In this document: one piece after another, positions 18,936 through 21,378 of the stretch | Layout of the letters: each line of letters starts with the position of its first letter | Numbering within the stretch: the first letter of the stretch is position 1 | From: an uncultured Alphaproteobacteria bacterium | GTDB lineage: Bacteria; Pseudomonadota; Alphaproteobacteria; Sphingomonadales; Sphingomonadaceae | Direction: 5' to 3' | Length of the DNA stretch: 64,000 nucleotides | NCBI GenBank assembly: GCA_963765775.1 | Contig: CAVXXQ010000007.1 | Span: 57,769 to 121,768, forward strand | Notes under the pieces: generated by a model | Databases searched by the model: none | What the model saw: the letters and a program-made list of their open reading frames with translations, nothing else | Told to the model about the DNA's origin: nothing | Position numbers and translations under genes: made by a program

Positions 18936-19607
18936 TCAAGAAAGCGCGTAATCGCTCACAAACGCGTTGGTCTTGCGTTCGCGGCCGAAGGTGCTGGTCG
19001 CCCCGTGGCCGGGGATGAACATCACGTCCTCGCCGAGCGGCCAGAGGCGCTGGGTGATGCTGTCGATCAGGTCCTGATGATTGCCGCGCGGGAAGTCGGT
19101 GCGGCCGATGCTGCCCTGGAACAGAACATCGCCGACGATCGCGAAGCGGCTGGGTTCGTGGAAGAACACCACGTGGCCCGGCGTATGGCCGGGGCAGTGG
19201 ATCACGTCGAGCGTCAACTCGCCCACCGTCACCGTGTCGCCGTGCTTCAGCCAGCGGGTCGGCGTGAAGCTCTTCGCGACCATCCCCCAGCGCGGGCCGT
19301 CATCGTCGAGCTGGTCGATCCAGAAGCGGTCGTCTTCGTGCGGCCCTTCGATCTCGAGCCCCAGCTCCTCGGCCAGCATCCCCGCCTGCCCGCAATGATC
19401 GAGATGCCCGTGGGTGACGAGCAGCTTCTCAAGCGTAACGCCCGCCTTCGCGACGCCCTCCTTGAGCTTGTCGAGATCCCCGCCCGGATCAACCAGCGCG
19501 CCGCGCATGGTCTTGGTGCACCAGATCAGCGAGCAGTTCTGCTGGAGCGGCGTCACCGGAATGATCGCGGCGCGCATGGGGGGGAGCGGTTTGGGGGTGT
19601 CGGTCAT
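18936..19607 (-). CDS. MBL-fold metallo-hydrolase (glyoxalase II-like, YcbL type)
   Basis: THGHLDH, PGHTPGH, VGDVLF, PGHG; start re-picked at ATG 19607. Confidence 0.92.
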   Translation of the reverse strand: MTDTPKPLPPMRAAIIPVTPLQQNCSLIWCTKTMRGALVDPGGDLDKLKEGVAKAGVTLEKLLVTHGHLDHCGQAGMLAEELGLEIEGPHEDDRFWIDQLDDDGPRWGMVAKSFTPTRWLKHGDTVTVGELTLDVIHCPGHTPGHVVFFHEPSRFAIVGDVLFQGSIGRTDFPRGNHQDLIDSITQRLWPLGEDVMFIPGHGATSTFGRERKTNAFVSDYALS

Positions 19608-19653
19608 AGGATCGGAAATGGCTTGCCATCTGCGTGAATGCAAGCCGAGCCGA

Positions 19654-19944
19654 TCAGCAGCGAAGATCGACAATGTAGTCGGCAATCGCGCTGATGGTCG
19701 CCTGCGCGCGCGGCATCGCCGAAGGATGGGGGCCCAATCCCATGTGTTCCGCTTCAACCAGAACGAGGTAGTTGGCCGCCGCCACAGGGTTTTTACCGTC
19801 CCAAAGATGCGATGCAATGTGCGTGAGATAGCGATCATATTCGTCGTCGCAGTCATCACGCACCGCCCGGAGACCGATAGGGTCCCAGTGCGTCCAGCCA
19901 ATGTCCCTCAGTCGATTAAGGTCGAAAGTCGGGGGCGAAGTCAC
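19654..19944 (-). CDS. Hypothetical 96-aa protein with WDPIG..DEYD motif (DUF1871-like)
   Basis: C-terminal part of track ORF 19654..20340; GTG at 19944 overlaps the repressor stop (GTGA); LRDIGWTHWDPIG..DDEYDRYL. Confidence 0.7.
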   Translation of the reverse strand: MTSPPTFDLNRLRDIGWTHWDPIGLRAVRDDCDDEYDRYLTHIASHLWDGKNPVAAANYLVLVEAEHMGLGPHPSAMPRAQATISAIADYIVDLRC

Positions 19945-20633
19945 ACCCGCCCCCCCTTCCACACAACCCGGCCGATAATCTCGACCTCGTCCGCCGCCAC
20001 CTCCACCGGGGGGTAGGCGAAGTTCTGCGACAATAGCGCCACCCGCCCCGCCCCGGCGCTTGCGACGCGCTTCACCATCAATGTCTCGCCTAGGCGCACC
20101 ACGTGGATGCCGTCGCGGAATGCGCGAGGGCTGCGGTCGATCAGTATCTCGTCGCCGTCGTTGAGCAGCGGCTCCATCGAATCCCCCTCGACCCGGATGG
20201 CTGACAGGCTGGCGCGGGCGAGGCCTTGCTCCTCCAGCCAGCGGCGCGAGAAGCGGAAGGTGTCGAAGGCCTCCTCGCCGCCCGCGATGCGCCCCGGCCC
20301 CGCCGAGGCGCCAAGGTCGAGCCGCGGCACGTCCACCCACTCGCCCGATTCGCGCTGCCTGAGGGGTTTTACGTAGGAATTTTCCTGCGCATCGCGCAAC
20401 TCCTCCTCCCCCACCCCGAAGAACCGCGCCAGCGTCGCGCGGTCCTGTTCCTCGAGCTTGCGGGGTGAGCCTTTGCGAATGAATTGCTGGAGATAGCTCG
20501 CATTGCGGCCGAGCAGCTCGGAGAGAGCTGCGAGGCTTACCCCCCGCTCTTGCGACAATTCGAGCAGCCGCGCGCGGGGTCCAGCGACCATTTTGCGGGG
20601 CGACTTACGAGGGGTTTGTACGATTTCCAGCAT
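19941..20633 (-). CDS. CI/LexA-like repressor: HTH plus S24 autopeptidase
   Basis: HTH (SLAALSELLGRNASYLQQFIRKG), Ala-Gly site in LGASAGPG, catalytic Ser in GDSMEP, Lys in MVKRV; start may be ATG 20591. Confidence 0.92.
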   Translation of the reverse strand: MLEIVQTPRKSPRKMVAGPRARLLELSQERGVSLAALSELLGRNASYLQQFIRKGSPRKLEEQDRATLARFFGVGEEELRDAQENSYVKPLRQRESGEWVDVPRLDLGASAGPGRIAGGEEAFDTFRFSRRWLEEQGLARASLSAIRVEGDSMEPLLNDGDEILIDRSPRAFRDGIHVVRLGETLMVKRVASAGAGRVALLSQNFAYPPVEVAADEVEIIGRVVWKGGRV

Positions 20634-20639
20634 GCAAAT

Positions 20640-20676
20640 ATCCTACACGAAGGATTTTTCCTAGACAAGTAGGAAA
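20640..20676. promoter_or_regulatory. Putative operator array in the divergent intergenic region
   Basis: Alternating half-sites TCCTA (20641), AAGGA (20650), TCCTA (20659), TAGGA (20670); perfect IR TTTCCTA-N6-TAGGAAA at 20657-20676. Confidence 0.65.
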
Positions 20677-20758
20677 TCGCATGAAACAAAAAGGGAACGC
20701 CGAGCTGATTCGCCGGGCGGAAACAATCATCTAGATCAGCAAAACAGGGACGCAAACC

Positions 20759-20962
20759 ATGCTGCTACGGACCATCGAGACCTTCATGCGCGAGCATGCC
20801 ATGCCCGCCACCAAGTTCGGGCGGCTCGCCGCTCACGACCCGCGCTTCGTGCTCGACCTGCGCATGGGGCGCACCCCGCGCCGCGACACCGAACTGCGCA
20901 CCCGCGCGTGGATGCAGGGCTACGCCGATGGCGCGTCCGCCGAAATGAGGGAGATGGCCTGA
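20759..20962 (+). CDS. Cro-like small HTH protein (67 aa)
   Basis: Helical pattern LLRTIETFMREH-MPATKFGRLAA-DPRFVLDLRMG; divergent from the S24 repressor. Confidence 0.75.
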   Translation: MLLRTIETFMREHAMPATKFGRLAAHDPRFVLDLRMGRTPRRDTELRTRAWMQGYADGASAEMREMA

Positions 20963-21378
20963 TGCTCACCGAAAGCCTTCGCGATCCGTTCGCCCACATG
21001 TTCGCCGATCTTGACCCGATCGAGCTCAAGTCCGCCCCCCGTCCCTCCGCCGCCCTGCGCCCCCGCCGCACGCTTGGCGACAGGGTACGCGCGGCGTTGA
21101 TGGGGCTGACCAGCGGCTCGGGCACGGTCCTCGTTCACAGCGAGACAACGTGGTCCTCCATCACCTTTTCCGGAACGCGCCACGAGGTGGTGCTGGAATT
21201 CTGCGGTCCTGACGCGGTCGCGGCGGGCGAGGAGCTGATCGAGCGGCTGCCCGATCACGAATTCGCCCTGCCCGGTCAGCTGGTTGCCGATGCGACGATC
21301 AGCGCGGTCGACCACCGCTTTGGCGCGATGGAGCGGCTGGAGGTGACGGCGGTGCTGTTGCTGCTGGAGGATGGCTGA
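20962..21378 (+). CDS. Hypothetical protein (138 aa), tail-terminator/DUF3168-like motif pattern
   Basis: ATG 20962 overlaps the Cro-like stop (TGATG); WSSITFSGTRHEVVL..LPDHEFALPGQLVAD..LLLLED. Confidence 0.75.
   Translation: MLTESLRDPFAHMFADLDPIELKSAPRPSAALRPRRTLGDRVRAALMGLTSGSGTVLVHSETTWSSITFSGTRHEVVLEFCGPDAVAAGEELIERLPDHEFALPGQLVADATISAVDHRFGAMERLEVTAVLLLLEDG

What the first reader, a model, noticed from the sequence alone, without database searches (positions are those of the whole stretch)
19654..21378. Prophage-free CI/Cro-like switch controlling two uncharacterised genes (best candidate for an undescribed system)
Seen: an HTH-S24 repressor with all autocleavage elements (Ala-Gly in GASAG, Ser in GDSM, Lys in MVKR) faces a 67-aa Cro-like HTH gene across about 125 bp containing operator-like palindromes. 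Each arm carries one coupled passenger: a WDPIG/DEYD protein (GTGA overlap) and a 138-aa orphan (TGATG overlap). No integrase, att site or structural gene is nearby. The flanks are housekeeping genes, and codon usage of the repressor, Cro-like gene and 138-aa orphan is host-like, so the module looks domesticated. Established: lambda-type CI/Cro pairs form bistable switches flipped by RecA*-stimulated S24 self-cleavage. Inference: a DNA-damage- or phage-triggered bistable module whose output is the 138-aa protein, possibly anti-phage or controlling gene transfer agent (GTA) production in a subpopulation.
Basis: partly seen in the sequence, partly recalled or inferred. Interest (0 to 1): 0.78.

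Follow-up and report, generated by a model that had tools for sequence, protein, structure and literature searches.

The report
Domesticated phage switch with tail-terminator cargo
A self-cleaving phage-type repressor facing a small Cro-like gene is a real, prophage-free, vertically inherited module of Sphingomonadales whose conserved output is a strongly diverged phage tail-terminator protein; it looks wired to the DNA-damage response, and its presence does not depend on the gene transfer agent.

Summary
At 19941-20633(-) lies an HTH + S24 repressor with Ala111-Gly112, Ser152 and Lys188. It faces, across 125 bp, a 67-aa Xre/Cro-fold gene that overlaps a 138-aa gene by one base.

New here:
- The repressor-Cro-138 triad is single-copy, at the same site and under purifying selection in 25/25 genomes of the genus. 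Related modules occur in at least 6 Sphingomonadales families.
- The WDPIG gene is a strain-specific, codon-atypical hitchhiker, not part of the module.
- The "orphan" is a diverged tail terminator (gpU/DUF3168 fold). Its best structural match is the RcGTA virion. In other families the same position holds a bona fide PF11367 gene.
- A 14-bp palindrome (AGGA-W4-TCCT) occurs only twice in the genome: in the intergenic region and inside the repressor gene. Both copies are conserved at the DNA level.
- A LexA box and a GANTC site follow the operator.
- GTA control is not supported. The genome's gafZ-like gene has its own regulator elsewhere, and the module persists in 11/25 genomes that lack the GTA capsid.

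The closest analogues are AlpR/AlpA, PrtR/PrtN and RogA/GafYZ. What the output protein does remains unknown.

The parts
19941..20633 (-). c/CI-type repressor: Xre HTH + S24 autopeptidase (Ala111-Gly112, Ser152, Lys188), 230 aa
   Evidence: Pfam S24 E=1.8e-19 and phrog_4 E=1e-37. The catalytic columns align with LexA. 37% identical to the c repressors of Mu-like Pseudomonas phages D3112/DMS3/MP22. Syntenic orthologues in the genus loci examined, dN/dS 0.17.
20374..20387 (.). Second operator-like palindrome TAGGAATTTTCCTG inside the repressor CDS (codons E-N-S-Y)
   Evidence: One of only two AGGA-W4-TCCT sites in the genome. The A/T-ending codons GAA/GAT-AAT/AAA-TCC-TAC are kept across the genus although GC3 is about 0.83.
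20641..20677 (.). Operator cluster: TCCTA half-site, 14-bp palindrome AAGGATTTTTCCTA (20650-20663), TAGGAAAT half-site. It overlaps -35-like TAGACA (20662-20667, rightward). On the other strand it overlaps TTGTCT-N17-TAGGAT, which ends 6 nt before the repressor ATG
   Evidence: Nearly invariant in 20 genus loci while dS of the flanking genes is about 0.85. The same ATAGGA-N4-TCCT type is seen in modules of other families. The promoter hexamers are my own reading; the consensus scan found none.
20684..20698 (+). LexA (SOS) box-like direct repeat AAAC-N7-GAAC. One mismatch here; TGGAACA-N5-GGAACA in many relatives
   Evidence: The same GGAACA-N5-GGAACR box lies upstream of recA, lexA, and imuA-like and uvrD-like genes of this genome. 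The alphaproteobacterial LexA motif GTTC-N7-GTTC is cited in PMC9578287 and PMC4211646.
20707..20711 (.). Conserved GANTC (CcrM methylation) site inside a CGAWTCG palindrome
   Evidence: Present in almost all genus loci just downstream of the SOS box. Function not tested.
20759..20962 (+). Cro/Ner-like small Xre-fold HTH protein, 67 aa
   Evidence: AF2 pLDDT 88.8 and Foldseek hits to Xre/Cro HTH proteins. Core KFGRLAAHDPRFVLDLRMGR is near-invariant. dN/dS 0.18. The domain lies next to repressor homologues in 13 of the 27 class-level loci outside this family that were checked.
20962..21378 (+). Diverged tail-terminator-like protein, 138 aa: disordered N-terminal ~36 aa plus a gpU/DUF3168-fold domain. 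Start overlaps the Cro-like stop (TGATG)
   Evidence: AF2 pLDDT 82.6. Top Foldseek hit is the RcGTA virion chain 6tba_4A (E=1.6e-4), followed by lambda gpU and the monocin cap. hhalign against GTA g8 terminators: 78% probability, E=1.8e-5. It nests within the module-type PF11367 genes in the tree. Found in 25/25 genus genomes; dN/dS 0.23.
19654..19944 (-). WDPIG/DEYD 96-aa gene: strain-specific hitchhiker, not part of the conserved module
   Evidence: Absent from all other genus loci. Codon score 0.13, GC3 0.67. Homologues are sporadic among Alphaproteobacteria. The one homologue whose context I read (5 places) sits beside IS transposases, ParB and ParE/RelB.

Best explanation
This is a domesticated, vertically inherited phage immunity switch.

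Inferred from the sequence:
- A self-cleaving c/CI-type repressor binds a 14-bp palindrome that overlaps the two back-to-back promoters. A second copy lies about 276 bp away inside its own gene.
- In this way it represses both itself and the divergent operon.
- That operon encodes a Cro/Ner-like HTH protein and, with overlapping stop and start codons, a strongly diverged tail-terminator (gpU/DUF3168-fold) protein.
- The operon promoter also carries a LexA box and a GANTC site.

Inferred mechanism:
1. DNA damage produces RecA*, which stimulates cleavage of both LexA and the repressor.
2. The Cro-like and tail-terminator-like proteins are then made.
3. The Cro-like protein probably holds the repressor promoter off, which would give a bistable response.

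Most speculative step: the output protein keeps the terminator fold, so it most likely acts on tail-tube or connector assemblies. It could, for example, cap or poison the tails of induced or infecting siphophages. It does not appear to act as a transcription factor or as an obligatory GTA part.

The WDPIG gene is a recent insertion that is co-transcribed by accident of position.
For: - Repressor identity and catalytic residues.
- Cro-like fold.
- Tail-terminator fold and homology.
- Triad in 25/25 genus genomes at one locus, with dN/dS 0.17-0.23 at dS~0.85.
- The same module (repressor | [Cro-like] - [~140-aa unknown] - PF11367 terminator) lies between housekeeping genes where the flanks were read. 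It occurs in families f1, f2, f5, f7, f9 and f10 of the order.
- The operator occurs only at the module, both copies are conserved, and the same type is used across families.
- The LexA box is identical in type to those of recA, lexA, imuA-like and uvrD-like genes.
Against: - There are no expression, binding or cleavage data, and no RNA runs exist for this organism.
- The LexA box has one mismatch in this strain. I did not find it in the modules of other families.
- The promoter hexamers fall below the scan's consensus threshold.
- P4 lacks about 20 residues of canonical DUF3168 and has a long stem branch, so it may have lost its tail-binding activity.
- Nothing shows what the output protein does.
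Confidence: 0.6

Rival explanations
1. GTA link. The switch controls GTA production, or supplies an alternative or accessory tail terminator for RcGTA-like particles in a subpopulation.
For: - The genome has an RcGTA-like cluster at C6:754655-768560.
- P4's best structural match is the RcGTA virion chain.
- Module-type terminators group next to the Sphingomonadales GTA g8 genes, in a tree that has no phage outgroup. The best known-phage hit of one of them is only 26% identical.
- Caulobacter GTA is controlled by a LexA-like repressor, RogA (PMC9632790).
Against: - The GTA capsid is absent from 11/25 genus genomes, including complete or near-complete G003, G008, G012, G014 and G021. P4 is in 25/25 and intact wherever the contig is complete.
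- The GTA cluster has its own g8.
- A gafZ-like DUF6456 gene with its own divergent Xre regulator lies at C3:34665-35822.
- P3 and P4 are neither Bac_DnaA_C nor DUF6456 proteins.
- The operator motif is found nowhere else in the genome.
- RogA lacks the catalytic residues and matches only weakly.
Confidence: 0.12
2. Immunity is the selected function. The repressor is kept because it silences incoming temperate phages or ICEs that use the same operator. The Cro-like and terminator-like genes are then merely tolerated cargo.
For: - Repressor/Cro-like pairs of this type are widespread next to mobile-element genes in Alphaproteobacteria.
- A 38%-identical paralogue sits beside an integrase in this genome.
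- The HTH and the operator type are conserved across the order.
Against: - P3 and P4 are as constrained as the repressor (dN/dS 0.18 and 0.23).
- The terminator-like gene is the constant cargo across families, while the middle genes vary.
- The autocleavage residues and a LexA box are kept, which would be pointless for pure immunity.
Confidence: 0.12
3. Inert prophage remnant decaying in place.
For: All parts are of phage origin. No neighbouring phage genes are left.
Against: - Conservation across the order and synteny across the genus.
- Intact frames in every locus not cut by a contig end, purifying selection, and conserved cis-elements at saturated dS.
- The profile search found 887 clusters at 50% identity for the P4-type family.
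Confidence: 0.03

Closest known systems
Pseudomonas aeruginosa AlpR/AlpA-alpBCDE and PrtR/PrtN-pyocin circuits (PMC7969949; PMC12796719)
   Same: A chromosomal, prophage-free CI/LexA-like S24 repressor responds to DNA damage and releases phage-derived genes next to it. The response occurs in a subpopulation.
   Different: - The outputs there are an antiterminator or activator plus lysis or tailocin genes. Here the output is a Cro-like HTH protein and a single tail-terminator-like protein.
- No lysis or tail genes follow here.
- There is no sequence relationship beyond the S24 repressor class.
- Here there is an additional LexA box.
Caulobacter RogA-GafYZ control of the gene transfer agent (PMC9632790; PMC11150451)
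   Same: An alphaproteobacterial LexA-like HTH + S24-fold repressor binds GGAA/TTCC-type inverted repeats and represses a small operon linked to a domesticated phage.
   Different: - RogA has lost the catalytic Ser and Lys (GDDL and VRE). It matches the window's repressor only over the S24 domain (E~1e-3).
- GafY is a Bac_DnaA_C protein and GafZ a DUF6456 protein. P3 and P4 are neither.
- The half-site spacing differs: AGGAA-N2-TTCCT here against GGAA-N4-TTCC.
- This genome has a separate gafZ-like locus.
- The module is kept in genomes without a GTA.
Lambda/434/P22 CI-Cro and Mu-like phage c-ner immunity switches
   Same: - Divergent repressor and small HTH genes, with palindromic operators overlapping back-to-back promoters.
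- A RecA*-type autocleavage triad.
- A second, distant operator that could support looping.
- 37% identity to the D3112/DMS3 c repressors.
   Different: - It is not in a prophage, and no integrase, replication, lysis or morphogenesis genes are present.
- It is inherited vertically as a core locus.
- The small HTH belongs to an unannotated alphaproteobacterial subfamily.
Tail terminators: lambda gpU, SPP1 gp17 / PF11367 (DUF3168), RcGTA g8 (PDB 6TBA)
   Same: The fold of residues 37-138 and the W-S-x-x-F-x-G-x-x-H motif. The gene at the same position in other families is a bona fide PF11367 member.
   Different: - It stands alone under a repressor, outside any tail gene cluster.
- It lacks about 20 residues after the first helix and carries a ~36-aa disordered N-terminal extension.
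- It is not recognised by the Pfam, PHROG or NCBIfam models.

Membership tests
CI/LexA-type self-cleaving repressor (HTH + Peptidase S24) | N-terminal HTH and C-terminal S24 domain | tested here: met
   Pfam PF00717 E=1.8e-19, HTH_31 E=1.4e-3, phrog_4 E=1e-37
CI/LexA-type self-cleaving repressor (HTH + Peptidase S24) | Ser/Lys catalytic dyad and Ala-Gly cleavage site | tested here: met
   GDSM Ser152 and VKR Lys188 align with Caulobacter LexA. SAG Ala111-Gly112 lies in the linker. All three are conserved in all orthologues.
CI/LexA-type self-cleaving repressor (HTH + Peptidase S24) | RecA*-stimulated autocleavage | not testable with these tools
   Needs an in vitro or in vivo cleavage assay
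Lambdoid CI/Cro bistable immunity switch | Divergent small Cro-type HTH gene | tested here: met
   AF2 and Foldseek show an Xre/Cro fold. Related P3-domain proteins give weak HTH_3/HTH_26 hits.
Lambdoid CI/Cro bistable immunity switch | Repeated operators overlapping both promoters and bound by both proteins | tested here: inconclusive
   Conserved palindrome plus half-sites overlap the promoter-like hexamers. Binding was not tested, and the consensus promoter scan found nothing.
Lambdoid CI/Cro bistable immunity switch | Belongs to a (pro)phage genome | tested here: not met
   Housekeeping flanks, no tRNA, integrase or structural genes, and the same locus across the genus
LexA (SOS) regulon | GAAC-N7-GAAC (GTTC-N7-GTTC) box in the promoter | tested here: inconclusive
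   This strain has AAAC-N7-GAAC, one mismatch. Many relatives have a perfect TGGAACA-N5-GGAACA. The box type was validated on recA, lexA, imuA-like and uvrD-like genes. LexA binding was not tested.
RogA-GafYZ GTA regulatory module | Repressor orthologous to RogA (S24-like fold without the catalytic residues) | tested here: not met
   In the C. vibrioides genome P2 matches only LexA (E=2.5e-5) and RogA (E=1e-3), and only over the S24 domain. RogA has GDDL/VRE.
RogA-GafYZ GTA regulatory module | Activators GafY (Bac_DnaA_C) and GafZ (DUF6456) | tested here: not met
   P3 and P4 hit neither family. PF08299 finds only DnaA in the genome. The real DUF6456 gene is at C3:34665-35147.
RogA-GafYZ GTA regulatory module | Co-occurrence with a GTA cluster | tested here: not met
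   P4 is in 25/25 genus genomes; the GTA capsid is in 14/25
Tail terminator (PF11367 / gpU-like) | Match to the family profile | tested here: not met
   P4 and 52 diverse relatives give no PF11367 hit. The genes at the same position in G038 and G032 do (E=1e-21 and 2e-9). hhalign of the P4 family against GTA g8: 78% probability, E=1.8e-5.
Tail terminator (PF11367 / gpU-like) | gpU-type alpha/beta fold | tested here: met
   Foldseek: 6tba_4A E=1.6e-4; also 3fzb (gpU), 9j1j/4acv (monocin cap) and the T1 terminator
Tail terminator (PF11367 / gpU-like) | Encoded within a head-tail morphogenesis cluster and assembled on a tail tube | tested here: not met
   It is a stand-alone gene behind a repressor/Cro pair. 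Assembly cannot be tested here.

The most novel reading that the evidence does not exclude
The conserved output is a neofunctionalised tail terminator that cells make only when the SOS response and the repressor switch fire. It acts as a decoy cap on the tail tubes or connectors of induced prophages or infecting siphophages. This would be a chromosomal, order-wide 'tail-poisoning' defence that sits in none of the PADLOC models searched. Alternatively, it has acquired a wholly new non-structural role in the DNA-damage response.
Probability: 0.2. Interest if true: 0.75.

Novelty: new variant of a known kind. Interest (0 to 1): 0.55.

Why it matters
Prophage-free CI-like switches (AlpR, PrtR, RogA) have each turned out to govern notable subpopulation behaviours: self-lysis, tailocins and GTA release. 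This one is a core locus of a whole order of environmentally important bacteria. It has a nearly invariant operator, a probable LexA input, and a cargo of a kind I found no report of: a lone, fast-evolved tail terminator.

The P4-type family has 887 clusters at 50% identity and no annotation. Finding its function would name a large family. It could also reveal a new way in which a phage structural fold is reused by the host.

Tried and rejected
- **GafY/GafZ and RogA hypothesis.** I fetched C. vibrioides gafYZ through a published primer and compared it. Rejected: different families, and a separate gafZ-like locus exists in this genome.
- **Direct family searches.** Pfam, NCBIfam, PHROG and PADLOC searches with P1, P3 and P4 gave nothing. 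A P4 profile search against PDB sequences also gave nothing.
- **First hhalign.** With the genus-only alignment it was weak (18% probability). It improved with a broader alignment.
- **5'-UTR hairpin.** I took the CATCGGG-CGAATCG-CCCGATG element for a covarying RNA hairpin. The flanks do not pair in several lineages, and the constant core is the CGAWTCG/GANTC palindrome. I therefore treat it as a DNA site.
- **Promoter and terminator scan.** No hits.
- **Sequencing runs.** Only metagenome DNA was found, no RNA.
- **GTA_TIM (PF13547) as a GTA marker.** It returned nothing although a GTA cluster exists. I used the capsid instead.
- **Literature.** Searches for DUF3168, for tail terminator with SOS, and for the Sphingomonad LexA regulon found nothing on this module.
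Full report
**1. Anatomy**

The finding's coordinates hold four ORFs:
- P1, 19654-19944(-), 96 aa, the WDPIG/DEYD gene. Its GTG start overlaps the repressor stop (GTGA).
- The repressor, 19941-20633(-), 230 aa.
- A 125-bp spacer.
- P3, 20759-20962(+), 67 aa.
- P4, 20962-21378(+), 138 aa, with a TGATG overlap.

The repressor is an HTH + Peptidase_S24 protein (PF00717 E=1.8e-19; phrog_4 'transcriptional repressor' E=1e-37). When aligned with Caulobacter LexA, its GDSM (Ser152) and VKR (Lys188) fall on the catalytic columns. SAG (Ala111-Gly112) lies in the linker. Its nearest phage relatives are the c repressors of the Mu-like Pseudomonas phages D3112/DMS3/MP22, at 37% identity over 85% of the length.

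P3 and P4 match no Pfam, NCBIfam, PHROG or PADLOC model.

**2. The small genes**

P3 was modelled with AF2 (pLDDT 88.8) as four helices. The model superposes on HipB, SinR, P22 c2, 434 Cro and DdrO at TM~0.6 and rmsd~2 A. It is therefore an Xre/Cro-type HTH.

P4 was modelled at pLDDT 82.6. It has a disordered N-terminal stretch of about 36 residues and an alpha/beta domain. The best PDB match of that domain is a chain of the RcGTA virion (6tba_4A, E=1.6e-4, probability 1.0). Lambda gpU, the monocin cap/Listeria antigen B and the T1 terminator follow.

Sequence evidence agrees:
- In two other Sphingomonadales families, the gene at the same position behind a repressor homologue is a bona fide Tail_completion_gp17/DUF3168 protein (E=1e-21 and 2e-9; phrog_176 'tail terminator').
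- A same-family intermediate (G335) hits both types.
- A 53-member P4-family alignment aligns to GTA g8 terminators with 78% probability and E=1.8e-5.
- In a maximum-likelihood tree, the P4 clade (100/100) nests inside the module-type terminators on a long stem. The GTA g8 genes form a separate clade (100/100).

P4 is therefore not an orphan. It is a fast-evolved tail-terminator derivative. Its own subfamily comprises 887 clusters at 50% identity, and none of the 53 members I scanned is recognised by Pfam.

**3. Distribution**

P4 is single-copy in 25 of 25 genomes of the genus. The names attached to database hits are Erythrobacter and Porphyrobacter.

The repressor-P3-P4 triad is adjacent in all genus loci examined. 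In nearly all of those whose flanks I read, it lies between an MBL-fold hydrolase and an aldehyde dehydrogenase. Median dN/dS is 0.17, 0.18 and 0.23 for the three genes, at dS~0.85.

P1 is in no other genome at this locus. It has atypical codon usage (score 0.13, GC3 0.67). It belongs to a family that is sporadic among Alphaproteobacteria. The one homologue whose context I read lies beside IS elements, ParB and ParE/RelB. In most relatives the repressor gene is followed within 14-33 bp by the hydrolase gene. P1 is therefore a recent insertion.

Across the order, 15 of 20 'second' DUF3168 copies that I fetched lie next to a repressor homologue. The layout is repressor | [P3-like] - [a ~140-aa unknown protein with a vD+rW++RkGWaR motif] - terminator. 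It occurs in families f1, f2, f5, f7, f9 and f10.

Repressor/P3-type pairs also occur elsewhere in Alphaproteobacteria. They include multi-copy 242-aa proteins with two P3 domains plus an HTH_17 domain. The switch itself is thus a common mobile-element device. What is special is its fixation together with the terminator-like gene.

**4. Cis-elements**

The spacer is nearly invariant in the genus although synonymous sites are close to saturation. It contains:
- A TCCTA half-site (20641-20645).
- The palindrome AAGGATTTTTCCTA (20650-20663).
- A TAGGAAAT half-site (20670-20677).

AGGA-W4-TCCT occurs only twice in the 3.18-Mb genome. The second copy, TAGGAATTTTCCTG (20374-20387), is inside the repressor gene. 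There it is encoded by E-N-S-Y codons whose A/T third positions are kept throughout the genus against a GC3 of about 0.83. That is a DNA-level constraint, consistent with a distal operator about 276 bp away.

My reading of the promoters is as follows:
- TTGTCT-N17-TAGGAT on the minus strand ends 6 nt before the repressor ATG, giving a short or absent leader.
- TAGACA-N17-AACAAA (AACATT in relatives) on the plus strand is preceded by TG(G) in relatives.

Both fall below the scan's consensus threshold, so they remain inferences.

Immediately downstream lies a direct repeat. It reads AAAC-N7-GAAC here and TGGAACA-N5-GGAACA in many relatives. The same GGAACA-N5-GGAACR element precedes recA, lexA, and imuA-like and uvrD-like genes of this genome. 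It also matches the alphaproteobacterial LexA motif GTTC-N7-GTTC (PMC9578287, PMC4211646).

A conserved CGAWTCG palindrome follows, which contains a GANTC CcrM site.

The ATAGGA-N4-TCCT operator type recurs in the modules of other families. The LexA box was seen only in this family.

**5. The GTA hypothesis**

The genome has an RcGTA-like cluster at C6:754655-768560, with its own DUF3168 terminator. I retrieved Caulobacter vibrioides gafY, gafZ and rogA through a published primer:
- GafY is a Bac_DnaA_C protein.
- GafZ is a DUF6456 protein.
- RogA is an S24-fold protein with GDDL/VRE in place of the catalytic Ser and Lys.

P3 and P4 belong to neither activator family.

The window's genome has a true gafZ-like DUF6456 gene at C3:34665-35147. 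It is divergent from its own 194-aa Xre-type regulator.

The GTA capsid is missing from 11 of 25 genus genomes, five of them complete or nearly so. All 25 keep P4. A dedicated role in GTA control or assembly is therefore unlikely in this genus. The module-type terminators do group next to the Sphingomonadales GTA g8 genes, though that tree has no phage outgroup. The best known-phage hit of one of them is only 26% identical.

**6. Mechanism**

Shown:
- The parts list.
- Conservation.
- The uniqueness of the operator.
- The type of the LexA box.
- The folds.

Inferred:
- The repressor binds the two palindromes, represses both promoters and possibly forms a loop.
- RecA* triggers cleavage of LexA and of the repressor.
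- P3 and P4 are then co-expressed (their stop and start codons overlap).
- P3 feeds back on the repressor promoter.

Speculative: P4 acts on tail-like assemblies.

The closest functional analogues are AlpR/AlpA and PrtR/PrtN of P. aeruginosa (PMC7969949, PMC12796719) and RogA/GafYZ (PMC9632790, PMC11150451). It is not a member of those systems.

**7. Earlier notes of this scan**

Earlier notes had flagged the palindromes, the DUF3168 resemblance and a family-wide switch in Sphingomonadaceae. I re-derived each point independently.

**8. Verdict**

This is a real, conserved, domesticated CI/Cro-type switch with an unusual tail-terminator-derived output of unknown function. I rate it a new variant of a known kind, with interest 0.55.

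Noticed in passing
own genome, outside the window: G000 C3:34665-35822: A gafZ-like gene (160 aa, DUF6456 E=8e-40, 44% identical to C. vibrioides GafZ) is divergent from a 194-aa Xre-HTH protein with an S24-like tail that lacks GDSM. This is probably the real GTA activator/repressor pair of this genome. No GafY (Bac_DnaA_C) gene was detectable apart from dnaA.
   Followed up: partly
own genome, outside the window: G000 C6:754655-768560: An RcGTA-like cluster running from terminase through portal, protease, capsid, g6, g8 (DUF3168), tube and tape measure to a 727-aa g15-like protein. The PF13547 GTA_TIM search did not find it. Its capsid is absent from 11 of 25 genomes of the genus, so the GTA appears to have been lost repeatedly.
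   Followed up: partly
own genome, outside the window: G000 C6:8910-11166: A 38%-identical paralogue of the repressor (199-207 aa) lies beside a 386-aa gene that I read as an integrase (not family-checked) and low-codon-score genes. This looks like an integrative element or prophage remnant.
   Followed up: no
window 20700-20720 and the homologous sites in L002-L024: A conserved CGAWTCG palindrome containing a GANTC (CcrM) site lies just after the LexA-like box. It fits, from memory, the GcrA-preferred YGAKTCK motif. This hints at cell-cycle or methylation input to the promoter.
   Followed up: partly
L051, L057 (other Alphaproteobacteria), also L046: Proteins of 242 aa carry two tandem P3-like domains plus a C-terminal HTH_17 (excisionase-like) domain. 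They are divergent from repressor homologues. One genome has 12 P3-domain matches, mostly in such ~240-aa frames. This is probably an ICE or prophage regulator family built from the same unannotated HTH domain.
   Followed up: partly
L026 6403-6825, L097, L098, L104, L109, L115: A ~135-150-aa protein family sits between the Cro-like gene and the terminator in several Sphingomonadales families. It has a conserved C-terminal motif (A/P)GPvLd...vD+rW++RkGWaR. It has no Pfam or PHROG hit and is not DUF6456. It is absent from the Erythrobacteraceae loci I examined.
   Followed up: partly
window 18936-19944 versus L006-L010: In most relatives the repressor gene is followed on the same strand, after only 14-33 bp, by the MBL-fold hydrolase gene, so the two may be co-transcribed. 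The repressor's 3' flank is a hotspot for small insertions of 0.15-2.2 kb in different species, and P1 is the one here.
   Followed up: partly
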